NCBI GenBank assembly: GCA_902764415.1 | Contig: CACWVU010000001.1 | Span: 1,133-65,132, forward strand | Length of the DNA stretch: 64,000 nt | Direction of reading: 5' to 3' | DNA from: an uncultured bacterium | GTDB taxonomy: Bacteria > Verrucomicrobiota > Kiritimatiellia > RFP12 > UBA1067 | Shown: piece after piece, positions 10,731 through 36,851 of the stretch | Numbering within the stretch: the first letter of the stretch is position 1 | Layout: every line of letters starts with the position of its first letter | Position numbers and translations under genes: made by a program | The notes under the pieces: generated by a model | The model's database searches: none | What the model was told of the DNA's origin: nothing | What the model saw: only the letters and a program-made list of their open reading frames with translations

Positions 10731-11591
10731 ATGGAACTGTGGTACACCGACGAACACACTCGGGACGTGCGCTTCTCGATGAAGGTGGTCGAGCAGATCG
10801 CCTCGCGCAAAAGCGACGTCCAGCAGATCGACATCCTCGACACGCAGGCCTATGGGCGCGTGCTCGTCCTAGACGGCGGACTGATGATCACCGAGAAGGA
10901 CGAGTTCATCTACCACGAGATGATAACCCATGTCCCGATGGCGGTGCACCCGCGCGTGAAGAACGTGCTGGTGATCGGCGGCGGCGACGGCGGCACAGTG
11001 CGCGAGCTCGTGAAGTACAGGTCCATCGAATCCATCGACCTCGTGGAGGTCGACAAGCATGTCGTCCTGCTCGCGAAGAAGTATCTGCCGTTCACGTCTT
11101 CCAAGCTCAGGGACAGGCGCGTCAAGGTGTGGTTCGAGGAGGGACTCAGGTATGTGCGCGGCAAGAAGGCCGAGTATGACCTGATCATCGTCGATTCGTC
11201 CGATCCGTACGGGCCCGCCGAGGGTTTCTTCACCCGCGAGTTCTACGGCACCTGCTACAAGGCGCTGCGCGACGACGGCATCCTCATCAACCAGCACGAG
11301 TCGCCGTTCTACTCGGCCCACCAGAAGTCCGTGCGCGACGCCCACCGCCACATCGCGGTGGAGTTTCCGCTCGCAACGGTGTACCAGTGCCATATTCCGA
11401 GCTATCCCTCTGGCCACTGGCTCTTCGGCTTCGCCTCCAAGAAGTACCATCCCATCGGCGACCTCGACGAGGAGCGCTGGAACAGGCTCCGCATCAGGAC
11501 GCGCTACTACAATACCGCTCTCCACCGCGGGGCGTTCGCCCTGCCGAACTACGTGCTCGACATTCTCAAGGAGGAGGAGCTGCAGAAATGA
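10731..11591 (+). CDS. speE: Spermidine synthase-family aminopropyltransferase
   Basis: LVLDG...EFIYHEM, VLVIGGGDGGTVRE, IIVDSSDP motifs. Confidence 0.9.
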   Translation: MELWYTDEHTRDVRFSMKVVEQIASRKSDVQQIDILDTQAYGRVLVLDGGLMITEKDEFIYHEMITHVPMAVHPRVKNVLVIGGGDGGTVRELVKYRSIESIDLVEVDKHVVLLAKKYLPFTSSKLRDRRVKVWFEEGLRYVRGKKAEYDLIIVDSSDPYGPAEGFFTREFYGTCYKALRDDGILINQHESPFYSAHQKSVRDAHRHIAVEFPLATVYQCHIPSYPSGHWLFGFASKKYHPIGDLDEERWNRLRIRTRYYNTALHRGAFALPNYVLDILKEEELQK

Positions 11592-17726: not shown

Positions 17727-17758
17727 GCCACGCTCACGTATTCAAACGTGGGCGTGGC
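17727..17758 (+). terminator. Hairpin after rubrerythrin (no U-tract)
   Basis: gccacgctcacg / tattcaaa / cgtgggcgtggc: a 12-bp stem with one G-U pair. Confidence 0.35.
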
Positions 17759-17787: not shown

Positions 17788-18432
17788 ATGAAGATCGAGG
17801 AACTCATAGACCGAGGGGACGAGACGGGACAGCGCATCCGCGAGACGCTGAACGTCCTTCTTGAGTCGCCGTACTTCTATAAGACGGACGACGAACGGCT
17901 TTTTCTCGTCTTGACGCGCTACAAGCGCGCGTTCGAGGCGTTCTTCGACAAGTTTTTCGGATGGACGCTCGTGATGGATTCGAAATGTGCGCGCCTCTAC
18001 AAACCGAAATGGTTCAACGAGAAGATCACGCAGCCGAACCGCGACATGTTCGGCTTCACGAAGCGCGACGAGTGCATGGCGTTTCTAATCCTCATCGAGT
18101 TCTTCGAGCGCGAATGCCGGGAGCAGGGCGTGACGGCCGATGACCGCGAAAACCTGCGCTTCCGTTTCGGCGACTGGCTCGAATACGCAGCGACGCGCTT
18201 CCGAGCGCTGATGTCCGGCAAGGAGGAGAACTACACCGACGAGCGCGTGCGGCAGATACTGCGCGACATCATGCCCGACCTGGTACGGTACCGCTTTTTG
18301 CAAAAAGTGAGACCTTCGGCGGACGACAGCGTGAGCGAGTCAGAAACGATCTTCGAGTGCCTCCCCGCCCTCTGGCACTACCAGGCCGCGCAGCTCAACC
18401 AGCCCGTCGACAATGAGGAGGTCGCGGAATGA
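17788..18432 (+). CDS. JetB/MksE-like small subunit candidate of a Wadjet-like system
   Basis: 214 aa helical protein, first gene of a coupled four-gene set. Size and position next to the SMC-like ATPase fit DUF4194/DUF2398-type partners. No catalytic motif. Confidence 0.5.
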   Translation: MKIEELIDRGDETGQRIRETLNVLLESPYFYKTDDERLFLVLTRYKRAFEAFFDKFFGWTLVMDSKCARLYKPKWFNEKITQPNRDMFGFTKRDECMAFLILIEFFERECREQGVTADDRENLRFRFGDWLEYAATRFRALMSGKEENYTDERVRQILRDIMPDLVRYRFLQKVRPSADDSVSESETIFECLPALWHYQAAQLNQPVDNEEVAE

Positions 18433-21400
18433 AGCAGCGTGAATCATACAGGATAACCGCCGTGAGGGTTGTGGAGTTCCACAACCTCGGGACGACGACG
18501 ATTGAGATTCCCGAGGGCGGGCATCTGTTCCTTCTGGGCGACAACGGCTCGGGAAAGACGACCATCCTCGACGCAATACACCTCGTGCTGACCGCCGGAC
18601 GCGAAATGGAGTTCAACTCCGCCGCGCGCGTGGCGGGCGCGAAGGATTCCGGTGGACGCACCATCCAGGGAATCGTGCTTCGCTACAACGCCGTCACCGG
18701 ACGCCCCATGCGCGAGACGGGAATCACATACGCGGCGGTCGAGTTGAAGTCTGATGCCGGACGTGTCGTCTCGCTTGCCATCGGACTTTCCGCGGACGGA
18801 ATGGACGTTGCCTATGAACGCTGGGGCGGCATCGCGTCCGTTCCCGTCTCGGATCTTCCGCTCGCCGTAGAGGAAGAAGGCCGCCTCCGCGCCGCGACGC
18901 AGTCCGAATTCAAGCGCTCCGTTGCCATGCTCACCGGCGGCAAGTACTACGGGCACATCAACGACTACGCGGACGCGGTCGGCGCGCGGCTCTTCGGCGG
19001 CGAGGCGAAATACGCCGACGTCTGCAAGCTTCTCCGGACCGCCAAGGCCTACCGCGAAATCGCCGCGCGCGCGGCGAACTACGACGATCTTTTCCGCAGG
19101 CTTCTCGAGGATCCGAGCCGCGATACGTTTGAGCCGCTGCTGAAAGGACTCCGCGAGCTTGAGGAGAGCAAGGGACGTCTCGAGCAGATTGACGAGCGCG
19201 CGACCTACCTGAACGAACTGCGCCGCGAATCGGAGCGGCTGGCGACGCTGCGTCTCAAGACCGATCTCGTTGCATGGTCCGAAGCCGAGGCGAAGCGTAT
19301 TTCCGCGGTACGCGAAGGCGAGGCGCTTGCGGAATCAGAGCAGGCGGGACAGCGGGAGCTGTCCGCGCTTGAAGGCGAATGGGCGGCGCTGAAGGATGAT
19401 GCTGCCCGTGCGCGCGAGCGGCTTTCCGATCTGCGAGCGAAGGACAAAACCGGCCTCGTCGGACAGGAAAAGGCCGCCGCGCAGCGACTTTCCGAAGCGG
19501 AGAGAAAATCGGCCGATGCGGAGCGTGTGCTTGCAGAAGACCGCCGCGCCGCAGGTGCCGCGGAGAAAGCTGCGAAGGGCGCGTCAGAACATCGCGCGGC
19601 GGTATTGCGGAAGCACGCGGATGCATTGTCCGCAGCCGGCAAGGCGGCGAATGTTCCGGCAGGCGAAGTAGTCGATGCATTGTATGGAGCAGACGCGCAG
19701 GACCTGACCGGGTTGTTTGCGGAAGCGCGTGCCAGGGCCATGGCAGAGATCAATGTACGCACCGACGCAGCGTTTCAGGCGCGGTCCGAACTGGAGAGCG
19801 CGCACCGCGAAACCGAGGCGCGCCGCAGTGAACTTGATGCGATCCGCGAGCGCGGCGAGAATCTTCCGGATGTGCCGGGTTTCGATGAGGCGCGCACGGA
19901 GATTCGCGCAAAGATGCTGAATGCGCGTCCAATGTATGAGCTCATTGAGCCAGCGAGCGGATGCGATGCGCGTCATCTCGCGCTCCTCGAGCGGCTTGCC
20001 GGCGACGAGTTTCTCGCAACGTGGGTCGTGCGTCCCGACGAAGCCGACCAAGTGCGGCGGATTGCGTGGAAGAGTGCGGACGGCAGTGGAACGCCGTCCC
20101 TACCGAATGCGGTGCGCGGTAGGGTCGCCGTTCCACCGGCGACCGTTGCCGTGCGCGGCGGATCGGATGACGTGTCCGTCAACGACCTTGCGCCGTGGCT
20201 CGGGACGCAGGTGTCGTTCGAGGAGTCCGACGTTGAAGCCGTCGCGCTGCTGGCGCGGCACCTTGCGGCGAAGGGCGGTCCAGCGGGCGGAGATTTCCTT
20301 TCGCTGAAGACGTGGCTCTTCCGCGGGCGCGAGTGGCTTCTGCCCGATGCCAAGCCGCGCCTCATCGGCGCGAAGGCGCGCGCTGCCGAGCAGGCGCGCC
20401 TGGAAAAGGCGGCCGAAGCGCGTCTTGCGGAGGCGGAACGGACCGAAAAGGCGGCGGCGAAGGAAAGCGCCGCATGCGATCAGGCGCGTTTGAGTATGCA
20501 GACGTTTGTCGAGCGCCTCGAAGCGGCGCGGGACGATACCGCGCGCGAAGCGGCGTCCGTCGCCTCGGCAAACGCGGAGTTGCGCCGCGTGGACGAGCGC
20601 GCCTCGCTCTCGGCGGCGCGCGCGGAGGAGTGCCGCCGAGCGGCGTCGGCATGTCGCGAGGAGCTTGAGGACGTGCGCGTCAGGATGCGTGCCGAAGGGA
20701 TCGACGGATCGCTTGAAAAGCGCATTGCGTCCGCTGAAAAGACCTTGCAGGCGAAAGAGCGCGCGGCGGATGCGGCGCGGGAGCGGATCGGCGGCGTGCG
20801 CGGCCGGCTCGAAGGCCTCGCGAAGGCGCGGGCGGCGCGCGAAGCCGAGGCGGCGGAGTCCGCCGCGCGCGCGGCTGCGTCGCTGGCGCGTTTTTCCGCA
20901 CTCGTTCCGGAAGGGAAGGATGCCGCGCAGTTTGCGGCGGCGGAGTTCCCGCAGATTGCCGAAGTGGGAGCGGATTTCGCCGCGCTCCGCGAAGGGCTCG
21001 CGAAGGATTCCGGCGCTGCGGAGGCGAAGATCGAGCAGCGCATCCGCGACCAGAAGGGCGAGTCGTATGCGTTTTCGTTCGACCGCGCGTCGATCCGCAT
21101 CGTCGACCGGCGCGGCGTGTCGCTTGCGGAGGTGCTTGCGGACGAAACGCGGCGCCTGGACGAGCTTAAGGGCGTTCTCGACAAGAAGAGCCGCGAGGTG
21201 TTCGAGCAGATATTCATGGGTGAGGTCATGCGCAGGCTCTACCTCGACCTGATGCGGATCACCGACCTGACGGGACGCATCCAGCGTCAGCTCGCCGGAC
21301 GAAAATTCGGATCGAACCGCTATGCGTTTTCGCTCTCGCCGATTCCGGAATACGAGGGATTCGTCCGTCTTGTCCGCAAGGGCTACGCGCTCGACTCCGG

Positions 21401-21959
21401 CGGAGACAAGGACGAGCTTCGGGACTATCTCGAGCAGCACAGGGACGAAATCCTGAACGCAGACATCGACACGGTTCCTGATATCTTCGACTACCGCAAG
21501 TGGTTCCGCTTCGAGCTCAAGGTCGTGACGGAGAACGAGGAGGGACGCGTCATCGACCGCAAGGTGAAGAGCATGGGGTCCGGCGGCGAGCAGGCGGTGC
21601 CGAACTACCTCTTGATACTCACCGTTGCGGAATTCCTGTTCCACGGCGGCGACGGAGTGGAGCCTCCCAAGATGGCGCTCCTCCTCTTCGACGAGGCGTT
21701 CTACGGAATCGACGCGGCGCGGCGCGATCAGCTTCTCGCCTTCGCGGACGCGCTCGGGCTCCAGCTCTTCGTTTCGTCGCCTGACCAGGACGGAGTGAAG
21801 CGAGAGATAAAACACTCCGTCTCGCTTATCGTCGTAAAGGACGAAAACCTCGACGTGCACCTGACGCCTGTCGTCTGGCGCAACGTCGCCTCGCAAGGCG
21901 ATTTGCTGTCCGCCGCCGCGCCAGAAGTCGGCATGACGGTCAAGGAGGAGACGAAATGA
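18429..21959 (+). CDS. SMC/MukB/JetC-like ABC ATPase (1176 aa)
   Basis: Walker A LLGDNGSGKTT, FNSAAR, a long A/E/R-rich coiled-coil middle, signature GSGGEQ, Walker B LLLFDEAF. ATG overlaps the upstream stop (ATGA). Confidence 0.8.
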   Translation: MKQRESYRITAVRVVEFHNLGTTTIEIPEGGHLFLLGDNGSGKTTILDAIHLVLTAGREMEFNSAARVAGAKDSGGRTIQGIVLRYNAVTGRPMRETGITYAAVELKSDAGRVVSLAIGLSADGMDVAYERWGGIASVPVSDLPLAVEEEGRLRAATQSEFKRSVAMLTGGKYYGHINDYADAVGARLFGGEAKYADVCKLLRTAKAYREIAARAANYDDLFRRLLEDPSRDTFEPLLKGLRELEESKGRLEQIDERATYLNELRRESERLATLRLKTDLVAWSEAEAKRISAVREGEALAESEQAGQRELSALEGEWAALKDDAARARERLSDLRAKDKTGLVGQEKAAAQRLSEAERKSADAERVLAEDRRAAGAAEKAAKGASEHRAAVLRKHADALSAAGKAANVPAGEVVDALYGADAQDLTGLFAEARARAMAEINVRTDAAFQARSELESAHRETEARRSELDAIRERGENLPDVPGFDEARTEIRAKMLNARPMYELIEPASGCDARHLALLERLAGDEFLATWVVRPDEADQVRRIAWKSADGSGTPSLPNAVRGRVAVPPATVAVRGGSDDVSVNDLAPWLGTQVSFEESDVEAVALLARHLAAKGGPAGGDFLSLKTWLFRGREWLLPDAKPRLIGAKARAAEQARLEKAAEARLAEAERTEKAAAKESAACDQARLSMQTFVERLEAARDDTAREAASVASANAELRRVDERASLSAARAEECRRAASACREELEDVRVRMRAEGIDGSLEKRIASAEKTLQAKERAADAARERIGGVRGRLEGLAKARAAREAEAAESAARAAASLARFSALVPEGKDAAQFAAAEFPQIAEVGADFAALREGLAKDSGAAEAKIEQRIRDQKGESYAFSFDRASIRIVDRRGVSLAEVLADETRRLDELKGVLDKKSREVFEQIFMGEVMRRLYLDLMRITDLTGRIQRQLAGRKFGSNRYAFSLSPIPEYEGFVRLVRKGYALDSGGDKDELRDYLEQHRDEILNADIDTVPDIFDYRKWFRFELKVVTENEEGRVIDRKVKSMGSGGEQAVPNYLLILTVAEFLFHGGDGVEPPKMALLLFDEAFYGIDAARRDQLLAFADALGLQLFVSSPDQDGVKREIKHSVSLIVVKDENLDVHLTPVVWRNVASQGDLLSAAAPEVGMTVKEETK

Positions 21960-23203
21960 GCGACAACAGGCCATTGAACAAGACGGCAATCGCCGAGGCG
22001 GTTGAGAAGGCACCGCCGGTGGCGGATGTGCTGAGGAAGCTTGCTGGCAAGGTGGTGCGCGGAGTCGCGCTTCCTGGCTCCTTCACGGCGAAGGGGATCG
22101 ACTACGAAGCGCAGCGCGAGCTGGAGCGCCTGTTCGGCACGCTCGGGCAGCGCCAGCCGAATGGTTCGTTCCGCATTCAACTGCATGAGTTTCTTCGCGA
22201 TCCAGCGAAATGGTGCGAGGCGGTGGAGTATTTCGGGCTCGGGAAGGGAAAGGACGACGAAGGCGATGCCGAGGATGTCTTCGCACGGCTCAAACTGCTT
22301 GAACCAGATCTTTCGCAATTCATCGACAAGCTGTCCGCAAACGAGGAGGTGAGGCGGTTCCTGGTGACGGCGGAGAACCGGAAGGACTGGATGCATCTCT
22401 TTCGCTCCTTTGTCGAGAGATTCGACGGCCCTGAGTGCGGACTCGTTACGACGCTTTCCCAGCTTGGTTCTGACTGGTTCGGCGACAGCAAGAAGCTGAG
22501 GAGCGGCGGACTGCGCCGCCAGTTGGCCATAATCGCCGCAACGCTGGCCGATTCGCCTCTGGACGACGAAAGACGCGCGCTTGAAGGGGTTCTGGTCGTT
22601 GACAACCCCTACACGAGCAGCGTCACGTTCTCTGCGCCTGTGCATCTGGTCTTGAAGGACGGAGAGGTGCTTGACTATCCGTGTCGCTACTACGTCAACA
22701 GAATGGCGACGCAGCTTCCGCTTGAGACGGTACTTGAGCTTGCGGAGGTGAAATGGGCAGGGAAGATTCGTGCCGTGACGACAAGCGAAAACGCCGCGCC
22801 CTTTGCCAACATGGTGCGGAAAGGAGACGCCTGTGTCTATACAGGTGGCTATCCATGCCTGGCGGTGAAGATGTTCCTCCATAAGCTCGGTGCGACAGGG
22901 TCGGAATGCATCCATGAAGGAGACGCAGACCTAGACGGATTCAGAATCGCGTCTGAGGTCGGAAAGTGCATTCCGCTCAAGCGTGCCGTCGCGTCCGATG
23001 TTCTTGCGTGTGCTATGCCGGATGCAGGACGAGAACTAACGGCGGATCAGACAAGACGAGCCTGGTCGTTTCTCTCAAGTCCGCAATGGAAGGACTTCCG
23101 GTTCTCTGACGATGTGAGGCGAATAGTGTCTCGCGGCCGCTGGATCGAGCAGGAGTTGTTTGGCGCGATTTTTCGCAGGGCCAAGAAGGAGGCTGCGCGG
23201 TGA
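21956..23203 (+). CDS. JetD/MksG-like Toprim-domain protein (415 aa)
   Basis: C-terminal TSENAAPF (Toprim Glu) and HEGDADLDGFRIA (DxD). ATG overlaps the upstream stop (ATGA). Confidence 0.7.
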   Translation: MSDNRPLNKTAIAEAVEKAPPVADVLRKLAGKVVRGVALPGSFTAKGIDYEAQRELERLFGTLGQRQPNGSFRIQLHEFLRDPAKWCEAVEYFGLGKGKDDEGDAEDVFARLKLLEPDLSQFIDKLSANEEVRRFLVTAENRKDWMHLFRSFVERFDGPECGLVTTLSQLGSDWFGDSKKLRSGGLRRQLAIIAATLADSPLDDERRALEGVLVVDNPYTSSVTFSAPVHLVLKDGEVLDYPCRYYVNRMATQLPLETVLELAEVKWAGKIRAVTTSENAAPFANMVRKGDACVYTGGYPCLAVKMFLHKLGATGSECIHEGDADLDGFRIASEVGKCIPLKRAVASDVLACAMPDAGRELTADQTRRAWSFLSSPQWKDFRFSDDVRRIVSRGRWIEQELFGAIFRRAKKEAAR

Positions 23204-24846
23204 AACGGCGCATCGAGAGCCCAGAGGCGGATTTGTTCGCCCAAGCTGGAGGTGGCGGGGCGCCGCCACTGCCGATCTCCTCGCCGTTCGTCGATACGAC
23301 GCGTGAGATGCTCACCGGACGCGCCACGACGCTCGGCAACATGCTCGCGAGCGAACGCGCGGCCGAGTATGTCGCGATCCTGCGGGCGCTCGCGGAGTTC
23401 CGCGCCGAACACGAGCCTGAGCCGCTTCACGAGGACGTGGAGCGGAAGGTGTGCGGCGAAGAAGCGGATGCGTTTGCGTCCGCGGCGTTCAAGAGCGATC
23501 TCCGCCAGCTCAAGGAATGGAACCTCGTAGCGGAGCGCATCGAGAAGGAGCGGTTGCGCGGCTATCGCGACAACCGGCGCGCCAAGTTCCGCTATAGGAT
23601 GTGCGACGACGCGGCGGCCTTCGTGGAATGGCTGGCCGACCGCCATGCGCGCGACCTCATCCCGGGGGCGGGCGACGAAACGGGCAATCTCCTCGACATG
23701 CAGCGCTCCATACTTTCCGAGCTGCGGCGCATGCTCCATCGCGTGGATGCGGCAAAAGTCTCCTACGAAACCGCCGGCGACGTGCTGTTCCGCATCGATC
23801 AGGTGTCGCGCTACGTCGACGCGACGGCGAAGACCCTGCAGGAGCTAAACCTGCGGCTTCTGAGCTTCGGCATCGCCGAGTTTTCCGCGGACGAGGCCAA
23901 GCCCATCGTCGACGAGCTCGCGGTTTTCCTCGAGCGCTTCGGCAGGCGATTCGGAACGCTGCGCGAAGACATTTTGCGCGACGTCGAGGAGATGCGGCGC
24001 GACTGTCATGCGAAGAGATGGAAGGCATGCGCCGATACGCTCGCGGCGGAGACCTCGCGTTTCCGGCATATAGCGTCTGTGAAGATTCCGGACGCTGCGC
24101 GCATCCTTGCGGACGCCTCGCTCTTCTACGGCGCGGGCGGAACGCTCGTTTCGCTCATGTCGCGCATCGGCGACTCGGCGCGGAAGGTCTGGGGCAAGTT
24201 GAACGCGAAGCTGCGCGAGCTGGAGCGGCGCAACCACCGCATCGAGGATGTCGGCGCGCGTCTTGCGGAACTTGCGCGGCTCGGCGAGGATGAAGTTCCG
24301 CACGCCTGGATGCAGCGGCTCCTGGAGCCGGCGGCGATGTGCGGCGACGCGCAGGTGCGTCCGGGCGGAGAGAAGTCCGTTGCGCCACTCCCGAAGAAGT
24401 CGTCGCAGGTGAAGACGCGAAAGATCGTCTCCTGGATCACGCCGCGCAGGGTCGGGGAGCGTCCGGACGTCGCGTCCATCGCCGAGGAGCGCGCGAAGCG
24501 GCTCAGGGAGTGGATGTCTGCACGCGGGGTATATCCGACGGACGATGCGCTGTCGCTTTCCGGCGGAGCTTATTCCGAGTTCGGGGATTTCGCCAACCTT
24601 ATGAAGGTCATCGAGCATGTCTGGCTGGGCGGCGGCGAGAAGGCGCGGAAGCTTTTGGGCCTTCGCGGCACACCGACAGGCGTGGATGCCAGGGTTGAAA
24701 TCGACGGTGCAGCGTTGGCGTTTGAGGACATAACACTTGAGCTAATAAATGGATACGATACTCTGCCCGGACATTCATGCAGTCCGTCGGTCTCGTCAAC
24801 GACCACGCCCGCTTCTGCTTCCGCTACAAGGAACTCAAAAGGGTGA
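23200..24846 (+). CDS. JetA/MksF-like kleisin candidate (548 aa)
   Basis: The N-terminal segment ERAAEYVAILRALAEFRAE resembles the N-terminus of DUF2397/TIGR02677-type proteins as I recall them. The rest is helical. GTG overlaps the upstream stop (GTGA). Confidence 0.45.
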   Translation: MKRRIESPEADLFAQAGGGGAPPLPISSPFVDTTREMLTGRATTLGNMLASERAAEYVAILRALAEFRAEHEPEPLHEDVERKVCGEEADAFASAAFKSDLRQLKEWNLVAERIEKERLRGYRDNRRAKFRYRMCDDAAAFVEWLADRHARDLIPGAGDETGNLLDMQRSILSELRRMLHRVDAAKVSYETAGDVLFRIDQVSRYVDATAKTLQELNLRLLSFGIAEFSADEAKPIVDELAVFLERFGRRFGTLREDILRDVEEMRRDCHAKRWKACADTLAAETSRFRHIASVKIPDAARILADASLFYGAGGTLVSLMSRIGDSARKVWGKLNAKLRELERRNHRIEDVGARLAELARLGEDEVPHAWMQRLLEPAAMCGDAQVRPGGEKSVAPLPKKSSQVKTRKIVSWITPRRVGERPDVASIAEERAKRLREWMSARGVYPTDDALSLSGGAYSEFGDFANLMKVIEHVWLGGGEKARKLLGLRGTPTGVDARVEIDGAALAFEDITLELINGYDTLPGHSCSPSVSSTTTPASASATRNSKG

Positions 24847-24854
24847 AGTGAATC

Positions 24855-25892
24855 ATGGGTAAACGGTTGACAGGGTTTGACTATTCGCGACCGCTGTTCT
24901 ACATGGTAACGATCAAGTGCCATGAAGGGCGGCAGGCGCTGTCGGAGGTCGTCGCGCCCGGCAGATGCCAGATGAACGCGGTCACCCGCGCGATGGTGAA
25001 CTGCATTCGCAACTTTCATCTCGGCTGTAAGGCGATTGCGCCGATTGAGTGCTTTTCGATCATGCCCGATCATGTCCATTTGCTGATTAGGATAGTGGAG
25101 CAGGTAGGAGCAAGACTCTCAGGAGGGGACGCGATGGCGCGTTTAGACGGGGACGCCGGGGTTAAGAGTTTTGCTCCTTTCATCCCGCTTCGGCTTGAGG
25201 CGATTGTGGGCATGCTCATGCAGGCGCTGGAGGGGCGATATGCCGAGGTGACAGGTCGCAGGGAGGAAGTTTTCGAGGCGAGCTGGCACGACTGGATCGT
25301 GATGGCCGAGGGGCAACTCTCCGCCTTTACGCGGTATATTCGCGAAAATCCGCGCCGGGCGTGGCTGAGGCGAGAGAACCGCCGCTTTTTCACGCAGGTG
25401 AGGCGAGTTTCATTTGCCGGGCGCGAGTGGTTCGCCTACGGTAATGCGGCGCTTCTGGAACTGCCCGTGATCGAGCCGTTCAGATGCTCTCGCAAATGGA
25501 CCGAGGACGGCGACGAGTGGCGCGAGGCCGTCGGCAGGGCCGCGCGCATCGGCCCCGGCGGGGCGGGCGCGGGAACATTCATGAGCCCTTGTGAAAAGCT
25601 CTGCGGCAACCAAATATTCAAGGCGGGCGGTGCGCTGATCGTGCTTTCTCCCGAGGGCTTTGGCCCGAGATGGCACCCGACGCGCAACAAGGAGGCGCTC
25701 TGTGCGAAAGGGCGCATGCTATTTCTCTCGCTATGGGAGCCGCAGGCCGCGAGGCCCGACAACGCCACGCTCTACAGGCGCTGCCACGAGATGGGCGACG
25801 CGATTTTAGGGGCAAAACGCTTAGATAGGAGCAAGACTCTTACGAGTGTATCTTCTAAGAGTTTTGCTCTTAAAGGGGTTGATGATGAATAG
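24855..25892 (+). CDS. HUH Y1 transposase-like protein (IS200/RAYT-like fold) with C-terminal extension
   Basis: PDHVHLLI (HUH) and YIRENP (catalytic Tyr helix). 345 aa, longer than IS200 TnpA. Starts 8 nt after the upstream gene and overlaps the next gene. No flanking IS ends seen. Confidence 0.6.
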   Translation: MGKRLTGFDYSRPLFYMVTIKCHEGRQALSEVVAPGRCQMNAVTRAMVNCIRNFHLGCKAIAPIECFSIMPDHVHLLIRIVEQVGARLSGGDAMARLDGDAGVKSFAPFIPLRLEAIVGMLMQALEGRYAEVTGRREEVFEASWHDWIVMAEGQLSAFTRYIRENPRRAWLRRENRRFFTQVRRVSFAGREWFAYGNAALLELPVIEPFRCSRKWTEDGDEWREAVGRAARIGPGGAGAGTFMSPCEKLCGNQIFKAGGALIVLSPEGFGPRWHPTRNKEALCAKGRMLFLSLWEPQAARPDNATLYRRCHEMGDAILGAKRLDRSKTLTSVSSKSFALKGVDDE

Positions 25893-27615
25893 CGATAGCG
25901 ACAAATCCGAACTTCGGCGGGAGATGAAGGCGCGGCGGAAGGCGCTCGCGGCGGACGCGAAGGCCGCGGCGGATGCCGTCGTCTGCGAAAAGCTCAAGGC
26001 CAGGAGCGACATCTACGTGATGGTCGATCCGCTTGACTTCGGTGGTGCATTGGCCGTCTATCTCGCCTCGCCCGACGAAATTAACATCGATCCCTACATC
26101 GAGTATGTGCTTCACATGGACGTCGAGGTTGTCGCGCCGCGCTGGAACGGCGAGACTTACGAGCTCGCAAAGCTGAAGGGACTGGACGAGAAGAACCTGC
26201 GGCGCGGCCCGATGGGGATTCGCGAACCCGCCGACGCCGACATAGTGGAGCCGAAGAACGTCTATGCATGGATCATTCCAGGTCTTGCGTTCACGCGCGG
26301 CGGCAAGCGCCTTGGCTATGGCGGAGGATGGTACGACCGATTTCTCGCATCCGCGCCGAAAGGCGCAATCAAGATTGGCGTTGGCCATTCGTTCCAGATT
26401 GTCGATGACCTTCCAAGTGAACCGCACGACATCCAGCTTACCGACGTTGTTGACGGCTCTCTCGAAGACGATGCGCTTGAATTCAAGGAGATGGACGACG
26501 GTTTTCTGGCAAAGATCAAGATAAAGGACAGGGCGCAACGGTTTAAGGCGGTCGGTGTGTGTCTGTTGAGGACTCTTCTCTCGCCTGTCATCGGATTTGC
26601 CGTGTTCAGTTTGCTGTATGCGCTTGCGAAGTCGGGGCTGTATGTGCCGACGCGGCTAGTTCTGTTCATCGTGCTGCTTGGTGTTCTCGCGAGTTTCGTA
26701 TTCCCGGTTGCCGTGCTGATAAAGGCAATCGCCGCATGTGTGGAATGCGCGGCGGAGATACGCTTCGCGAATGGCGAGGGCGTGTGCCGCCGCTGGCTCT
26801 TTGGCCGGCTGCCGCTTCCTACGCGGCGGTTCACGCTGTCGCCATGGTCGCGGACGACTGGCGGAACGTGCGACTCTGCGTTGAAGGCATACGACTTTGA
26901 CACCGTTAAGATATGGCCGGACGGCGAGTATGTCCAACCCTGCCGACCACTGGTCAGGACATACGCCCACACGGCATTGATGCTGGCGATTCAGATCAAT
27001 CGCGCGAACAAATATGACGACGCGTCATACATTGCCGCACGCAAGACCCGTCTCGCCAATCTGCCGCGCGGGATGAAAATCTGCCCGACCGAGGACGGAC
27101 TGGGACGGATAGCCGTTATTCGCCCGCGTTCGCCGAATATATCACTCGAGGGCGTTGCGTGTGCTCTTATCGTGCTTATGCTGGCAACGTTCCTGATTTA
27201 TATCCCTTGTGTAGGATGGGCATTGTTCGGCGTTGTGGCGTTGGCTGTTTTCGCAATATGTCTTTACGGAATGCTTAGGGGGCTTTTCGGTTGCGTCAGA
27301 TGTGAAATTAGAAGCGGACGGATGGACTGTGTATCGGGGCTGTGGCCTTTTGTGCGGGAATGCAGAGTCTCGCTTGAAGGCAAGAGTCCGTCGCCATGCA
27401 GTGAACCTGATTGGCTGTATAACCTGTTTGCAGAGGCTGGCTGCTATCCGTTCTCGTGGCTGCCGCCGAAATACAGACTGCCGTTGCGGCTCTTCGTGGA
27501 AGAAGTGCTTGCGATAGATGCTTCAGATGATAAGGTTCGGGGGGATGTTTTTAGCCACAAAGTTCAGGAGGGACAGGAGAATTTAGCCACAAAGGGCAGG
27601 AGGGACATGAGATGA
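25882..27615 (+). CDS. 5-formyltetrahydrofolate cyclo-ligase domain fused to a ~390 aa Cys-rich polytopic membrane domain
   Basis: N-terminal ELRREMKARR..., GLAFTRGGKRLGYGGGWYDRFL. Downstream are two pairs of hydrophobic helices and CxxC-like motifs (CVECAAE, CVRCEIRSGRMDC). The last ~20 codons lie in the TTTAGCCACAAAG repeat. Confidence 0.65.
   Translation: MMNSDSDKSELRREMKARRKALAADAKAAADAVVCEKLKARSDIYVMVDPLDFGGALAVYLASPDEINIDPYIEYVLHMDVEVVAPRWNGETYELAKLKGLDEKNLRRGPMGIREPADADIVEPKNVYAWIIPGLAFTRGGKRLGYGGGWYDRFLASAPKGAIKIGVGHSFQIVDDLPSEPHDIQLTDVVDGSLEDDALEFKEMDDGFLAKIKIKDRAQRFKAVGVCLLRTLLSPVIGFAVFSLLYALAKSGLYVPTRLVLFIVLLGVLASFVFPVAVLIKAIAACVECAAEIRFANGEGVCRRWLFGRLPLPTRRFTLSPWSRTTGGTCDSALKAYDFDTVKIWPDGEYVQPCRPLVRTYAHTALMLAIQINRANKYDDASYIAARKTRLANLPRGMKICPTEDGLGRIAVIRPRSPNISLEGVACALIVLMLATFLIYIPCVGWALFGVVALAVFAICLYGMLRGLFGCVRCEIRSGRMDCVSGLWPFVRECRVSLEGKSPSPCSEPDWLYNLFAEAGCYPFSWLPPKYRLPLRLFVEEVLAIDASDDKVRGDVFSHKVQEGQENLATKGRRDMR
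27582..27602. repeat. Left arm of the IR bracketing the GxxExxY remnant
   Basis: tttagccacaaagggcaggag. The reverse complement at 27837-27857 differs at 1 position. A further partial direct copy is at 27548-27562. Confidence 0.8.
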
Positions 27616-30509: not shown

Positions 30510-32273
30510 ATGATGAACATTCGGAAAGTTGCGTTGATGTCGGCAGTTGCCGCGGGTGGTCTTGGCTTGGCGGCGGTCGCCGGGTCTGTCCCCCAGTCGT
30601 TGGTGTCTGTCCCCCAGTCGTTGATCGCGGAGGCGGACCGCGCCGCCCGCGGCGAAGTGACCGTGGTCGCGATCCCATGGAGCTTCCAGTCCAACCGCGT
30701 CGACTGGCTCTTCAACCCCACCAAGGCGAAGGGGCCGTTCAACCCCGAGTGGACCTGGCAGCTCAACCGCATGCAGTTCTGGTCGACGCTTGCGCGGGCC
30801 TACGTCGCCACCCGCGACGAGAAGTACGCCTGCGCCTTTGCGCGCCAGCTCGAGGACTGGCTTGCCCAGACCGGCGGCGTGCCGGCTGAGAATGGCTACA
30901 ACGGCGTCGGCAGCCCCTGGCGCACGATCGAGGAGGGGCTGCGCCTTATGAACAGCTGGCCGGAGGCATGGCGCGCCTTCTCCACCTCTCCGTCGTTCCC
31001 GTCGCCGCTCCGCGAGCGGTTCCGGGAGTCGATGCGCGCGCAGGCGCGGCACATCCTCGCGCACCGGTCGCGCGGGAACAACTGGCTTCTGATGGAGCTG
31101 AACGGCGTCCACTCCTGCGCAGTCCTCTTCCCGGACCTGCCCGAGTCCGCGGCCTGGCGGCGCGAGTCGGCGCGTCTCTTCGCCGAGGCGGCGAGCGAGC
31201 AGCTGCTGCCCGACGGCCTCCACTGCGAGCTTTCGCCCGACTACCACCTGGTCTTCTACGTCTGCGCGGCGCAGCTCTACCGCCGCGCGCTGGAGAGCGG
31301 CACGCTCGACGAGATTCCCCCCGCCTACAAGGAGCTGATGGTGCGCGGCGCCGAGGGTCCGCTCGCGATGACGACACCTTCGTTCGTGCAGCCGCGGTTC
31401 AACGACTGCTACACTGTTGCCGCAGAGGCGGTGCTGAAGACCGCGTCGGAGTTCTTCCCGGACCGGGCCGACTTCCGCTGGGGCGCCACGCACGGACGCG
31501 AGGGCGCGCCGCCGGCGGGCGAGACGGCGTCGCGTTTCCTGCCTTGGTCCGGGTTCGTGGTGATGCGCTCGGGCTGGGAGCCGGACGCGACGTACCTCGC
31601 GTTCGACGTCGGGCCGCTAGGCATCGGCCACTGGCACCAGGACAAGCTGTCGTTCACGCTCTGGAAGGGCGGCGAGGAGCTGGTCTTCGACGACGGCGGC
31701 GGACAGTACGAGCGCTCGGCGTACCGGGATTACGCGCTTTCTGGCTACGACCACAACACGCTGCTGGTGGACGGCCTCGCCCAGAACCGCCGCGGTCCGC
31801 GCAGGCTGGAGCGCCCGGTAGACGCAGGCTGGGAGTCGACGCCGGAGCGGGACTTCGCGCGCGGCGTCTACGACCAGGGGTTTGGTCCCCGCGAGGTCCG
31901 CCTGGCCGTGCACGAGCGTCGGATCGAGTTCCTGAAGCCGGACCGGTTCGTCGTCACCGACGTCGCGACGTCGGTTGACGGCAAGGCGCACGACTACGAG
32001 GTGCTCTTCCAGCTCGACACCACGAACACGGTCGTCTCCGCCGACGGCCGCACGCTCGTCGCTCGCTACGGCCGCGTCTGGGATCTGCGGCTGACGGTCG
32101 AGGAGGGCGGCGAAATCGCCACTGCGAGCGGGCAGCGCTCCCCGCGCCTCTCCGGCTGGTTCGTCGGCCGCAATGACCTCGTGATCCATCCCGCCACCAC
32201 GGTCTCGGTTCGCGCCCTCGCCAGAACCAACCACGTCTTCCGCACCGTCCTCGAGCCAGTTAAGGCAAAGTAG
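30510..32273 (+). CDS. Heparinase II/III-like polysaccharide lyase family protein with signal peptide
   Basis: Hydrophobic N-terminus. NRMQFW...RAY, NNWLLME, HWHQDKLSF, YDHNTLLVDG motifs of the alginate_lyase/Hepar_II_III architecture. Confidence 0.8.
   Translation: MMNIRKVALMSAVAAGGLGLAAVAGSVPQSLVSVPQSLIAEADRAARGEVTVVAIPWSFQSNRVDWLFNPTKAKGPFNPEWTWQLNRMQFWSTLARAYVATRDEKYACAFARQLEDWLAQTGGVPAENGYNGVGSPWRTIEEGLRLMNSWPEAWRAFSTSPSFPSPLRERFRESMRAQARHILAHRSRGNNWLLMELNGVHSCAVLFPDLPESAAWRRESARLFAEAASEQLLPDGLHCELSPDYHLVFYVCAAQLYRRALESGTLDEIPPAYKELMVRGAEGPLAMTTPSFVQPRFNDCYTVAAEAVLKTASEFFPDRADFRWGATHGREGAPPAGETASRFLPWSGFVVMRSGWEPDATYLAFDVGPLGIGHWHQDKLSFTLWKGGEELVFDDGGGQYERSAYRDYALSGYDHNTLLVDGLAQNRRGPRRLERPVDAGWESTPERDFARGVYDQGFGPREVRLAVHERRIEFLKPDRFVVTDVATSVDGKAHDYEVLFQLDTTNTVVSADGRTLVARYGRVWDLRLTVEEGGEIATASGQRSPRLSGWFVGRNDLVIHPATTVSVRALARTNHVFRTVLEPVKAK
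30584..30625 (+). repeat. 21-bp tandem duplication inside the signal-peptide region
   Basis: gtctgtcccccagtcgttggt followed by gtctgtcccccagtcgttgat, encoding SVPQSLV SVPQSLI. Contains the gtctgtcccc core seen in intergenic palindromes. Confidence 0.9.
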
Positions 32274-32470
32274 TGGGGACAGACCACGGGACAGTTGAAA
32301 AGTTGAAAGGTTGAAGGGTTGAAAAGTTGAAGCAGTGGGGACAGACCCCAGGGCAGGTAGACCCCAGGGCAGGTAGAAAGGTTGAAGCAGTGGGGACAGA
32401 CCCCAGGGCAGGTAAAAGGTTGGGCTTTGCCAGTTGAAAGGTTGAAAAGTTGAAAGGTTGAAAGGCCGCG
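32273..32470. repeat. Compound repeat array: GGGGACAGACC cores, GTTGAAAR octamer arrays, duplicated gcagtggggacagaccccagggcaggta units
   Basis: Octamer arrays at 32294-32333 and 32433-32466. The ggggacagaccccagggcaggta unit occurs twice, with an extra gaccccagggcaggta. Confidence 0.85.
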
Positions 32471-32558
32471 GTGATGCGCAAAACCGCCGCGGCGATGCGC
32501 GAAAACGCCGCGCAGGCTCGCGTGGCCGCCGTCCAATCTGCCGCGGAAAGTGCCGCGT

Positions 32559-32587
32559 CGCAGTTGCAATCTGCCGCGGAAAATGAG
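32559..32587 (+). repeat. 29-bp direct repeat, copy A
   Basis: cgcagttgcaatctgccgcggaaaatgag, identical at 32743-32771. Partial third copy tccaatctgccgcggaaagtg at 32531-32551. Confidence 0.9.
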
Positions 32588-32600
32588 ATAATACGCACTA

Positions 32601-32690
32601 ATGAATGTAGTGGTAAAAGAACTGCAGCTGCCATGGCATGGCGACGAGCGCGGCAAGTTGATTGCGCTGGAAGCGCTGACTGACCTTGCG
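32601..32690 (+). pseudogene. N-terminal remnant of a WxcM/FdtA-like sugar 3,4-ketoisomerase
   Basis: VKELQLPWHGDERGKLIALE resembles the start of the cupin-type FdtA/WxcM family. Similarity stops after ~25 codons. Sits between the 29-bp direct repeats. Confidence 0.35.
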
Positions 32691-32742
32691 CATCCGCAAA
32701 GCCTAAGACCTTCAGGCTGTGGGTATTCGGGGAATGCCACGC

Positions 32743-32771
32743 CGCAGTTGCAATCTGCCGCGGAAAATGAG
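32743..32771 (+). repeat. 29-bp direct repeat, copy B
   Basis: Identical to 32559-32587. Confidence 0.9.
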
Positions 32772-32856
32772 CTTATGCATATTAGCAGGGGAGTTTGACT
32801 CGCTTGAACACAAGCGGAAATCGTTTTTCCACAAACAGTAGACATCTAACCGTGAC

Positions 32857-33987
32857 TTGACAGTGAAAAAAGTGTTATTGCTAGGCGGTACTGGGGCGAT
32901 GGGTGTCTACCTATCTGAAAGGCTTTTGCATAACTATGAGGTTTATGTAACCTCACGTAAGCGTTGTTCTTCATGTGACGACAAAGACTCGGCTGTTGTT
33001 TTTGTCAATGGCGATGCCCAAGATGATGATTTCTTGAAACATGTCATTGAGAGTGTACGCCCAGATGGAATCGTGGACTTCATGACTTATACGACAGAAC
33101 ATTTCAAAGGAAGGGTAGACTGGCTCCTTAAAGGCTGCGAACATTATGTCTTTCTTTCCACCTACCGCGTGTTTGCCGGACAAGTTCCATTGACTGAGCG
33201 ATCTCCGCGGTTATTGGATGTTTGTACCGATGCTGAGTATCTGGCAACAGATGAATATGCCATGGCGAAGGCGAGGCAGGAAGATATACTGCGAAAGTTG
33301 GTTCTGAAGAATTGGACAATCATACGTCCAGCGATTACATTCTCTAAGGCTCGATTCCAATTTGGTTGTCTCGAGGCTTGGGAAGTGTGTTATCGATCTT
33401 TGGCCGGACTGCCTGTCATAATGCCGCGAGAAATGATGGATCGGCAGGCGACGCTCACTTGGGCAAATGATGTCGCGCAGATGATAGAAAAATTGCTATT
33501 CAACGGGAAGGCATATTCAGAAGACTTTAATGTGGCTACATCCGAGCATATGACATGGCGTGAGATTGGGAATATCTATGCCAAGGAAATAGGCATGACC
33601 GTGGAGGAGTGCTCTTTGAATGAATATATTGAGGTCATTGGATCACGCTATCAGGTGATGTATGACAGGATGTTCAATAGAATAGTCGATAATTCGAAGG
33701 TGTTGGCGACTACTGGAATGTCACAAAAGGACTTGACTCCGACAACATTGGCTTTAGAACGAGAACTTCAGTCTTTTAAAAAAGCCCCATACTATCCGGT
33801 TTTTATTGTTTCAAGGCTGGCTAGGATTGATAAGATTGTTGGAACAAGGATTCCTATGAATGGTCTTACTTTAGGGCAGAAAGAGGAGTACCTAAAGATT
33901 CGCTACCCGTTTCTGAACAACAAGGTAATGGATTTTGCAGAACGGGCCATAAGAAAAGCGATGCGTCTTGTGAAGAAAGGAGTCTAA
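32857..33987 (+). CDS. NAD(P)-dependent epimerase/dehydratase-family SDR
   Basis: VLLLGGTGAMGVYL Rossmann and YAMAKARQE (YxxxK). AT-richer than the backbone. Start is TTG 32857 or GTG 32863. Confidence 0.75.
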   Translation: MTVKKVLLLGGTGAMGVYLSERLLHNYEVYVTSRKRCSSCDDKDSAVVFVNGDAQDDDFLKHVIESVRPDGIVDFMTYTTEHFKGRVDWLLKGCEHYVFLSTYRVFAGQVPLTERSPRLLDVCTDAEYLATDEYAMAKARQEDILRKLVLKNWTIIRPAITFSKARFQFGCLEAWEVCYRSLAGLPVIMPREMMDRQATLTWANDVAQMIEKLLFNGKAYSEDFNVATSEHMTWREIGNIYAKEIGMTVEECSLNEYIEVIGSRYQVMYDRMFNRIVDNSKVLATTGMSQKDLTPTTLALERELQSFKKAPYYPVFIVSRLARIDKIVGTRIPMNGLTLGQKEEYLKIRYPFLNNKVMDFAERAIRKAMRLVKKGV

Positions 33988-33989
33988 TA

Positions 33990-36850: not shown

Positions 36851-36851
36851 T

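What the first reader, a model, noticed from the sequence alone, without database searches (positions are those of the whole stretch)
17788..24846. Wadjet-like SMC/Toprim four-gene system in a permuted B-C-D-A order
Four + strand genes are chained by 4-nt start/stop overlaps: ATGA at 18429, ATGA at 21956 and GTGA at 23200.
- A 214-aa helical protein.
- A 1176-aa ABC/SMC-type ATPase with Walker A GDNGSGKTT, a very long A/E/R-rich coiled coil, signature GSGGEQ and Walker B LLLFDEAF.
- A 415-aa protein whose C-terminus carries a Toprim-like Glu (TSENAAPF) and DxD (GDADLDG).
- A 548-aa helical protein whose N-terminus (ERAAEYVAILRALAEF) resembles JetA/DUF2397-type kleisin N-termini.

This parts list matches the plasmid-restricting condensin family Wadjet/JetABCD (MksBEFG, EptABCD). 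As I recall, canonical loci are ordered A-B-C-D with the kleisin first. Here nothing kleisin-like lies upstream (rubrerythrin plus a hairpin), the kleisin-like gene is last, and the operon continues 8 nt later into an HUH Y1 transposase-like gene. The small subunit is short, while the A-like protein looks like the long DUF2397 type, which suggests a mix of subtype features. This may be a circularly permuted Wadjet subtype or a distinct SMC-Toprim defence family.
Basis: partly seen in the sequence, partly recalled or inferred. Interest (0 to 1): 0.75.

Follow-up and report, generated by a model that had tools for sequence, protein, structure and literature searches.

The report
Divergent Wadjet anti-plasmid operon, kleisin gene last
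This is a real, intact but very divergent member of the known Wadjet (JetABCD) plasmid-cutting SMC defence family from a rumen Kiritimatiellae bacterium; its unusual gene order (kleisin gene last) is a local, recurrent rearrangement within a small unnamed clade, not a new kind of system.

Summary
Four translationally coupled + strand genes (17788-24846) encode a KITE protein (JetB-like, 214 aa), an SMC ATPase (JetC, 1176 aa), a Toprim nuclease (JetD, 415 aa) and a kleisin (JetA-like, 548 aa), in the order B-C-D-A. Profile matches, AlphaFold models and Foldseek hits assign every subunit to Wadjet. All four genes are under purifying selection and keep their catalytic motifs.

The system belongs to a small, uncharacterised Wadjet clade found in metagenomes, mainly from rumen Kiritimatiellae. 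Its kleisin and KITE are type II-like in sequence. Its KITE, however, is a single lobe rather than the ~390-aa tandem KITE of type II, and its SMC is short (1176 aa against ~1400).

The permuted order does not define the clade. Of 103 related loci, 45 are canonical A-B-C-D, including every outgroup, and 22 are B-C-D-A. On a JetC tree the B-C-D-A loci are not monophyletic, so at least two order changes occurred.

The downstream Y1-transposase-like gene is absent from all relatives. It sits beside a scar of a deleted tag gene and is not part of the system.

Verdict: a new variant of a known kind, of moderate interest.

The parts
17727..17758 (+). 12-bp hairpin (one G-T wobble, 8-nt loop) in the 82-nt spacer between the rubrerythrin gene and jetB. 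No T-run follows it, so a terminator role is not shown.
   Evidence: Read directly from the sequence. It is not called by the terminator scan.
17788..18432 (+). jetB-like gene: a single-lobe KITE subunit (214 aa, two winged-helix domains)
   Evidence: Pfam DUF2398 scores 37.1 bits (cut-off 26.9) but covers only profile positions 2-84 of 363. DUF4194 and MksE match weakly. PADLOC JetB2 and JetB1 both match. 31/31 family members hit DUF2398. The AF2 model has pLDDT 83. Foldseek top hits are nvJetB 9qe0_D, ecJetB 8as8_C, paJetB 8dk1_E and MukE. hhalign places it on lobe 1 of tandem DUF2398 proteins. dN/dS is 0.04-0.06.
18429..21959 (+). jetC: SMC/MukB-like ATPase (1176 aa). Walker A is at nt 18537-18563, the signature at 21576-21593 and Walker B at 21678-21701, with two coiled-coil arms and a central hinge.
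   Evidence: Pfam AAA_29 and SbcC_Walker_B match. The best PADLOC hit is JetC1 at 141 bits, with JetC2 at 87 bits. The only PDB sequence hit is JetC of N. vireti, 9qe0_A, at 5.8e-8. Walker A and SGGE are kept in 44/44 relatives.
21956..23203 (+). jetD: Toprim nuclease subunit (415 aa). The catalytic Glu is in TSENAAPF (nt 22781-22804) and the DxDxD in GDADLDG (nt 22919-22939).
   Evidence: Pfam DUF2399 scores 29.8 (cut-off 23.4) and JetD_C 27.7 (cut-off 22). PADLOC JetD1 scores 58.8 bits and JetD2 39.2. 21/21 relatives hit both JetD1 and JetD2 models. E278, D323, D325 and D327 are invariant in 21 diverse sequences. The DLDGF motif aligns to MksG 8b7f.
23200..24846 (+). jetA-like gene: kleisin (548 aa) with an N-terminal WHD (aa ~54-134), helical bundle (~136-360), disordered linker (~376-418) and C-terminal WHD (~427-515). 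The tail after aa ~514 is not conserved.
   Evidence: Pfam DUF2397 scores 29.3 (cut-off 28.5). 32/35 family members hit DUF2397 and nothing else. The AF2 model has pLDDT 74. The Foldseek top hit is nvJetA 9qe0_E at 7.6e-8, followed by MukF 3rpu_X and 1t98_B. dN/dS is 0.10-0.31.
24771..24851 (+). Remnant of the last ~25 codons of a tag (DNA-3-methyladenine glycosylase I) gene, in a different frame from jetA. The non-conserved jetA tail reads through it, so it is a deletion scar.
   Evidence: It translates to FMQSVGLVNDHARFCFRYKELKRVK*. tblastn with Tag of L012 matches at 5.7e-10. L012 has the full tag gene immediately after jetA (Adenine_glyco, 217 bits). DNA homology to close relatives stops at ~24740.
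24855..25892 (+). ORF5, a Y1 (HUH) transposase-like protein (345 aa). It is adjacent and probably co-transcribed, but it is NOT part of the Wadjet system.
   Evidence: The matches are faint: Pfam Y1_Tnp at 14 bits and NCBIfam REP_Tyr_transpos at 25 bits against a cut-off of 80. An HUH-like MPDHVHLLI and a YIRENP motif can be read in the translation. tblastn finds no homologue in any of the 103 related loci.

Best explanation
The locus is an intact, chromosomally encoded Wadjet (JetABCD) system of a rumen Kiritimatiellae bacterium.

Mechanism, inferred from characterised Wadjet types I and II: JetC dimers are closed by the JetA kleisin. A homodimer of the single-lobe JetB KITE decorates the kleisin, and the kleisin N-terminal WHD and bundle pair two such motors. 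The complex loads on DNA and extrudes loops. It completes extrusion only on small circular DNA, and then the JetD Toprim dimer cleaves that DNA. The outcome is restriction of plasmids.

Placement and history, shown here: the system belongs to a small, discrete and uncharacterised Wadjet clade. Its kleisin and KITE are type II-like in sequence (DUF2397; DUF2398 lobe 1). Its KITE is unfused and its SMC is short. The clade's ancestral order is the canonical A-B-C-D. In one sub-clade jetA was relocated from the 5' end to the 3' end, giving B-C-D-A, and the order changed again at least once. Translational coupling was rebuilt in the new order, as 4-nt overlaps with Shine-Dalgarno sites, and all four genes stay under purifying selection. 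The permuted operon therefore appears to be functional.
For: Component identity:
- Pfam, PADLOC and NCBIfam hits go only to Jet families.
- Foldseek top hits of confident models are JetB and MukE and JetA and MukF.
- JetC matches only N. vireti JetC in the PDB.
- Motifs are intact and conserved across the clade.

Functional constraint: dN/dS is 0.04-0.38 for all four genes among B-C-D-A loci.

Reality of the order: B-C-D-A occurs in 22 independent contigs from ENA, JGI and NCBI MAGs. A further 15 contigs have B first with no A upstream.

Derived and recurrent order:
- All outgroup clades are A-B-C-D.
- The JetC NJ tree gives clade X 100% bootstrap and B-C-D-A monophyly 0%.
- The window group is sister to A-B-C-D lineages at 96%.
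- The Fitch minimum is 2 changes, with an A-B-C-D root.

Discrete clade: the B profile finds only 107 of 1.84 billion representatives. All full-length hits are 210-270 aa. Tandem DUF2398 proteins appear only at E ~1e-4 to 1e-5.

Canonical control: a Bacillus type II locus reads A(510)-B(400)-C(1400)-D(444). mksFEBG order is reported as conserved (PMC10123090).
Against: - No experiment exists. Anti-plasmid activity, the JetB homodimer and complex assembly are inferred from homology.
- Sequence similarity to characterised Wadjets is marginal. The Pfam scores for A and D are just above the cut-offs. The TIGR02677-02680 scores are far below theirs. Profiles of A, B and D find nothing in the PDB by sequence.
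- The JetA model has pTM 0.40, so its domain arrangement is uncertain.
- The native C-terminal tail of JetA was replaced through a deletion. That could impair it, although the predicted cWHD (to aa ~515) is intact.
- The trees are NJ trees on metagenomic sequences. Recombination is evident for jetD and could distort the count of order changes.
Confidence: 0.8

Rival explanations
1. A distinct SMC-Toprim defence family that only resembles Wadjet, with B-C-D-A as its defining architecture.
For: Scores against curated Wadjet models are weak. A, B and D have no sequence-level PDB relatives. The subunits mix type I and type II features.
Against: All four proteins hit only Jet models. The folds match JetB and JetA first. 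The same clade is mostly A-B-C-D (45 loci, all outgroups), so the order is not a defining trait.
Confidence: 0.05
2. A chromosome-organising MksBEF-like condensin rather than a defence system, with JetD as a vestigial passenger.
For: It is chromosomal and flanked by housekeeping genes such as truA, glycosyltransferases and rubrerythrin. MksBEF systems without a defence role are known (bioRxiv 10.1101/2025.03.10.642339).
Against: JetD keeps an invariant Toprim Glu and DxDxD and is under purifying selection. jetD alleles are swapped between otherwise similar operons. Relatives carry restriction and other defence genes inside the operon. Distribution is patchy, with degraded copies and orphan jetB genes. 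These are typical defence-system dynamics.
Confidence: 0.07
3. A decaying, non-functional operon: the rearrangement, the tag-deletion scar and the adjacent Y1 transposase-like gene mark a locus on its way to loss.
For: The jetA tail (aa ~515-548) is a frameshifted read-through into a tag remnant. Relatives include degraded loci: L007 has lost B and most of C, and L081 holds an orphan jetB.
Against: There are no internal stops. All catalytic motifs are intact. Start/stop overlaps with SD sites are preserved. dN/dS to the closest relatives is 0.04-0.38. The conserved part of JetA, including the predicted cWHD, is complete.
Confidence: 0.08

Closest known systems
Wadjet type II (JetABCD of Neobacillus vireti; PDB 9QE0/9QE1; TIGR02677-02680, Pfam DUF2397/DUF2398/DUF2399)
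   Same: The kleisin matches only DUF2397, and its best structural match is nvJetA. The KITE's best profile match is DUF2398 and its best structural match is nvJetB. JetC's only PDB sequence hit is nvJetC. JetD hits DUF2399. Both have the same four subunits.
   Different: The KITE is a single lobe of 214 aa that matches only lobe 1. Type II has a ~380-400-aa tandem KITE with four WHDs. JetC is 1176 aa against 1371-1400 aa. All TIGR scores are far below their cut-offs. The gene order here is B-C-D-A, against A-B-C-D.
Wadjet type I / MksBEFG / EptABCD (E. coli GF4-3, P. aeruginosa PA14, C. glutamicum; PDB 8AS8, 8DK1, 8B7F)
   Same: The KITE is of single-lobe size and presumably forms a homodimer. 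JetC length and its best PADLOC model are type I-like (JetC1, 141 bits). The best JetD model is JetD1, and Pfam JetD_C scores above its cut-off. The KITE fold matches ecJetB and paJetB.
   Different: The kleisin gives no match to the type I JetA family. DUF4194 scores below its cut-off (21.3 against 32.7). The mksFEBG order is reported as conserved (PMC10123090), whereas here the kleisin gene is last.
MukBEF / MksBEF condensins
   Same: The SMC-kleisin-KITE architecture is shared. MukE and MukF are among the top structural hits.
   Different: Those systems have no Toprim nuclease subunit and act in chromosome organisation. Their gene order is kleisin-KITE-SMC.

Membership tests
Wadjet (JetABCD) | SMC-family ATPase (JetC) with Walker A, Walker B and signature motifs, long coiled coil and hinge | tested here: met
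Wadjet (JetABCD) | Kleisin (JetA) with N-terminal WHD plus helical bundle and C-terminal WHD | tested here: met
   DUF2397 matches in 32/35 members. The AF2 model shows the domain order. Foldseek top hits are nvJetA at 7.6e-8 and then MukF.
Wadjet (JetABCD) | KITE subunit (JetB) with two winged-helix domains | tested here: met
   The AF2 model has pLDDT 83 and two H-H-H-hairpin modules. Foldseek top hits are JetB from three Wadjet structures and MukE.
Wadjet (JetABCD) | Toprim nuclease subunit (JetD) with catalytic Glu and DxD | tested here: met
   DUF2399 and JetD_C score above their cut-offs. 21/21 members hit JetD models. E278, D323, D325 and D327 are invariant. The fold itself was not modelled.
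Wadjet (JetABCD) | Four genes in one operon in the order A-B-C-D | tested here: not met
   The window is B-C-D-A, so the one-operon part is met and the order is not. Order is a description rather than a functional criterion. 45 loci of the same clade are A-B-C-D.
Wadjet (JetABCD) | ATP-dependent restriction or cleavage of small circular DNA | not testable with these tools
   Needs transformation and in vitro cleavage assays.
Wadjet type II | Tandem KITE (JetB ~380-400 aa, four WHDs; full-length DUF2398/TIGR02678) | tested here: not met
   The protein is 214 aa and covers DUF2398 positions 2-84 of 363. TIGR02678 scores 30 bits against a cut-off of 125. It aligns to lobe 1 only. True tandem proteins score 239-274 bits. 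The clade's B proteins are 209-270 aa.
Wadjet type II | JetA of DUF2397/TIGR02677 type | tested here: inconclusive
   Pfam scores 29.3 against a cut-off of 28.5, with a family best of 1.9e-13. TIGR02677 scores 24 against a cut-off of 166. The fold is closest to nvJetA.
Wadjet type II | Long JetC (~1370-1400 aa; TIGR02680) | tested here: not met
   JetC is 1176 aa. TIGR02680 scores 55 against a cut-off of 463. Canonical lengths are 1371 aa and 1400 aa.
Wadjet type I | Type I kleisin and KITE families (DUF3375 as recalled from memory; DUF4194) | tested here: not met
   JetA gives no type I hit in Pfam or PADLOC. DUF4194 scores 21.3, below its cut-off of 32.7.
Wadjet type III | Type III-specific subunit families | tested here: inconclusive
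   No type III-labelled model appeared among the PADLOC hits. I could not verify how that library labels type III models.

The most novel reading that the evidence does not exclude
The clade would be an unrecognised fourth Wadjet lineage. It would preserve the unfused, homodimeric KITE state from which the type II tandem KITE arose by duplication and fusion. Its operon would also be unusually plastic: the kleisin gene toggles between the first and last position, jetD alleles are swapped as cassettes, and other defence genes (GmrSD, MmeI-type R-M, ApeA, PIN7, Schlafen/AlbA proteins and others) insert between the subunit genes on the same strand. The Wadjet operon itself would then act as a defence-gene integration hotspot.
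Probability: 0.3. Interest if true: 0.6.

Novelty: new variant of a known kind. Interest (0 to 1): 0.45.

Why it matters
- Defence-finder coverage. Current Wadjet models match this clade only marginally. NCBI names its proteins 'hypothetical', and the TIGR models fail. Wadjet is therefore probably under-counted in PVC bacteria and in rumen microbiomes.
- KITE evolution. The type II structure paper suggests that most or all type II KITEs are tandem and arose by gene duplication and fusion. A type II-like system with a single-lobe KITE is a natural comparison for testing that idea, and for asking what each KITE lobe contributes to loop extrusion.
- Gene order. The order kleisin-KITE-SMC is otherwise conserved from MukFEB to mksFEBG. 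A functional-looking operon with the kleisin last, alongside close A-B-C-D relatives, offers matched pairs for testing whether operon order matters for SMC complex assembly.
- Operon plasticity. The cargo insertions inside related operons point to a recombination hotspot worth a dedicated look.

Tried and rejected
- Sequence searches of the PDB found no true relatives. This held for JetA, JetB and JetD, both as single sequences and as family profiles. Only folds and Pfam/PADLOC profiles link them to Wadjet.
- hhalign of the family profiles against single canonical Bacillus type II proteins was uninformative: JetA probability 10%, JetD 0.5%. A single-sequence template is too weak.
- The promoter and terminator scan gave nothing above the shuffled expectation.
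- I considered whether rubrerythrin marks a circular-permutation junction, because L007 has it downstream of jetA. I rejected this. L007 is a degraded copy lacking B and most of C, and no other locus shows that arrangement.
- I considered tag as a stable chromosomal anchor showing that the operon was rearranged in place. I rejected this too. Homology between loci stops at the tag gene's borders, so tag behaves as another shuffled module.
- I considered ORF5 as a fifth component and rejected it, because it is absent from all relatives.
- Literature searches for a fourth Wadjet type, a permuted order, DUF2397/DUF2398 or Kiritimatiellae together with Wadjet found nothing.
- The paper that defined the Wadjet types (Doron et al. 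2018) is not held. The type definitions rest on later papers and on my own knowledge.
- The genome-collection scan with a single protein returned only close relatives. The metagenome scan with the B-family alignment was needed for the survey.
Full report
**1. The observation**

The three 4-nt start/stop overlaps (ATGA, ATGA, GTGA) are real. Each internal start has a GGAGG Shine-Dalgarno site 7-9 nt upstream.

All quoted motifs are present:
- Walker A at JetC aa 37-45.
- Signature GSGGEQ at aa 1050-1055.
- Walker B at aa 1084-1091.
- TSENAAPF at JetD aa 276-283.
- GDADLDG at JetD aa 322-328.

JetC has the SMC layout: head, arm, P/G-rich hinge (~550-650), arm, head. Upstream lie rubrerythrin and a 12-bp hairpin at 17727-17758. 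ORF5 starts 8 nt after the jetA stop.

**2. What the proteins are**

- *JetB-like (214 aa).* Pfam matches DUF2398 above its cut-off, but only over profile positions 2-84 of 363. DUF4194 and MksE match weakly.
- *JetC (1176 aa).* It matches AAA_29 and SbcC_Walker_B.
- *JetD (415 aa).* It matches DUF2399 and JetD_C, both above their cut-offs.
- *JetA-like (548 aa).* It matches DUF2397, just above the cut-off.

PADLOC hits go to Jet models for A, B and D. JetC's best hits are Jet models too, followed by generic ATPase N-terminal matches:
- JetB: JetB2 and JetB1.
- JetC: JetC1 best at 141 bits, JetC2 at 87.
- JetD: JetD1 at 58.8 bits, JetD2 at 39.2.
- JetA: JetA2 only, at 22 bits.

The NCBIfam type II models TIGR02677-02680 are all hit, but far below their cut-offs. 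That explains why NCBI names these proteins 'hypothetical'.

At family level:
- 32/35 JetA-like homologues hit DUF2397 and nothing else.
- 31/31 JetB-like homologues hit DUF2398.
- 21/21 JetD homologues hit both JetD1 and JetD2 models.

Structure predictions add independent support.
- The JetB-like model (pLDDT 83) has two winged-helix modules. Its best PDB matches are JetB of N. vireti (type II), E. coli and P. aeruginosa (type I), and then MukE.
- The JetA-like model (pLDDT 74, pTM 0.40) shows an N-terminal WHD, a helical bundle, a disordered linker and a C-terminal WHD. Its best match is N. vireti JetA at E 7.6e-8, followed by MukF.
- JetC's only sequence relative in the PDB is N. vireti JetC.
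- In 21 diverse JetD sequences, the Toprim Glu (E278) and D323/D325/D327 are invariant.

The system is a Wadjet.

**3. Which Wadjet**

The clade is discrete. A profile of the JetB-like family finds only 107 proteins among 1.84 billion representatives. Every full-length hit is 210-270 aa. Tandem-size DUF2398 proteins (371-380 aa) appear only at E ~1e-4 to 1e-5, and those score 239-274 bits on DUF2398. The JetB-like profile aligns to lobe 1 of such a tandem protein.

A canonical Bacillus type II locus, fetched as a control, reads A(510)-B(400)-C(1400)-D(444). The N. vireti structure paper describes the tandem KITE as a hallmark of type II. It suggests that most or all type II KITEs are tandem.

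This clade instead combines:
- a type II-like kleisin;
- a KITE that resembles lobe 1 of the type II KITE in sequence but is unfused;
- a short, type I-sized SMC;
- a JetD that matches both types equally.

No paper I could search describes this combination.

**4. The gene order**

I collected 103 related loci. I annotated them with the window's proteins. The counts are as follows:

| Order | Loci |
|---|---|
| A-B-C-D | 45 |
| B-C-D-A | 22 |
| B first, no A upstream | 15 |
| Undetermined | 21 |

All distant branches are A-B-C-D with the same short JetB. In these branches JetB is 49-58% identical to the window's, and the samples come from lakes, digesters and rumen. B-C-D-A occurs only inside one sub-clade, which has 100% bootstrap on a JetC tree.

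Within that sub-clade the B-C-D-A loci are not monophyletic (0% bootstrap). The window's group is sister to A-B-C-D lineages at 96% and is nested within a grade of B-C-D-A lineages. Parsimony needs at least two changes from an A-B-C-D root. Locus L036 is A-B-C-D and nests near the window group in the JetB and JetA trees, which suggests a third change.

The permutation is therefore real, common in rumen Kiritimatiellae and evidently viable. dN/dS is 0.04-0.38 for all four genes among B-C-D-A loci. It is nonetheless a recurrent local rearrangement, not the signature of a subtype. The mechanism of the relocation is not shown. Duplication followed by loss, or recombination between co-resident variants, are inferences only.

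**5. The edges of the locus**

ORF5 (24855-25892) has only faint Y1/HUH transposase similarity. It has no homologue in any of the 103 loci.

DNA homology with the closest relatives ends at ~24740. The last ~35 residues of the window's JetA are not conserved. They read, in a different frame, through a remnant of the last ~25 codons of a tag (3-methyladenine glycosylase I) gene at 24771-24851. In L012 a complete tag gene follows jetA directly (Adenine_glyco, 217 bits).

The window therefore carries a deletion scar that replaced the variable JetA tail. The predicted C-terminal WHD, which ends at ~515, is intact. ORF5 is a lineage-specific neighbour and not a fifth subunit.

**6. Mechanism**

Shown here: the parts list, the intact catalytic motifs, the translational coupling, the purifying selection and the evolutionary history of the order.

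Inferred from characterised type I and II systems: a dimer of JetA-JetB2-JetC2 motors extrudes DNA, senses small circular molecules and activates the JetD Toprim dimer to cleave them. A JetB homodimer is expected because the protein is a single lobe.

**7. Rivals**

- A non-Wadjet family is contradicted by the profiles, the folds and the A-B-C-D relatives.
- A housekeeping condensin is unlikely. JetD is conserved, jetD alleles are swapped, defence cargo sits inside related operons, and the distribution is patchy with degraded copies.
- A decaying pseudo-operon is unlikely given the intact ORFs and motifs and the low dN/dS. The altered JetA tail remains a caveat.
- An assembly artefact is excluded by the many independent contigs.

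**8. Verdict**

The locus is a new variant of a known kind: a divergent, type II-related Wadjet clade with an unfused KITE and a labile position of the kleisin gene. Interest is moderate (0.45).

Noticed in passing
L010:6182-8615; L011:722-4736; L013:7457-8660; L015:5317-7483; L028:12860-16067; L051:7885-11896; L004:15852-16940 (C-D junction). L012:2773-4002; L038:10824-18410; L047:2974-5487; L042:2705-3910 (B-C junction).: In many relatives, 1-8 kb of same-strand cargo sits between the Wadjet subunit genes. The window's operon is uninterrupted. The cargo includes GmrSD, AAA_14+DUF4143, T5orf172, ORF6N (with or without PLD), PRiA4_ORF3+SEC-C, PIN7, a Y1_Tnp-like gene, an MmeI-type R-M enzyme, Schlafen-AlbA_2/HATPase_c_4 proteins, ApeA (HEPN), Nmad3 and DUF1016/YhcG. 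The modules recur in different combinations. The operon junctions behave as a defence-gene insertion hotspot.
   Followed up: partly
jetD in L009, L011-L016 and L056, compared with window 21956-23203: jetD is mosaic. In operons where B, C and A are 80-97% identical to the window's, JetD is either 81-94% or only 45-52% identical. dS is saturated (2.7-3.7) against 0.6-1.0 for the neighbouring genes. The first ~110 aa are shared between the two alleles. This suggests cassette replacement of the nuclease subunit.
   Followed up: partly
window 24771-24851; L012:10599-11195; L064:7144-7716; L034:7707-8279 and 11244-11441; L062:18467-19036; L025:224-286: A tag (3-methyladenine glycosylase I) gene or its fragments recur next to these Wadjet operons: after jetA, after jetD or upstream of jetB. 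They are 84-93% identical at the nucleotide level, while the flanks and the Wadjet genes are much more divergent. Homology stops at the borders of tag, so it moves as a discrete module. The window keeps only its last ~25 codons.
   Followed up: partly
window 24855-25892 (ORF5), overlapped at its 3' end by ORF 25846-27615: ORF5 is a 345-aa protein with an HUH-like motif (MPDHVHLLI) and a YIRENP motif, but only faint Y1_Tnp and REP-tyrosine-transposase scores. It also has a ~165-aa C-terminal extension. A different 222-aa Y1-like gene sits inside the operon of L013. I did not establish what these domesticated-looking Y1 proteins do.
   Followed up: partly
L007:1-6573: This is a degraded or rearranged copy in MAG SIG88. 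Only the last 24 codons of jetC remain, followed by a PIN7-like gene, jetD, jetA and then rubrerythrin DOWNSTREAM; in the window rubrerythrin is upstream of jetB. The same MAG holds a second D-A fragment (L014).
   Followed up: partly
L081:9938-10603 (also L089, L090): Orphan jetB-like genes lie among housekeeping genes (radical SAM, SOD, PFOR) with no jetA, jetC or jetD nearby. They are presumably remnants of lost systems.
   Followed up: partly
window 32001-38000: G+C drops to 0.46-0.50, against 0.60-0.69 in the first 32 kb. GC skew is positive from ~18 kb to the end of the window. This may be a horizontally acquired segment. I did not examine it.
   Followed up: no
window 17727-17758: A 12-bp hairpin with an 8-nt loop lies between rubrerythrin and jetB. 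It has no T-run. jetB is the only one of the four genes without an obvious GGAGG upstream of its start.
   Followed up: no
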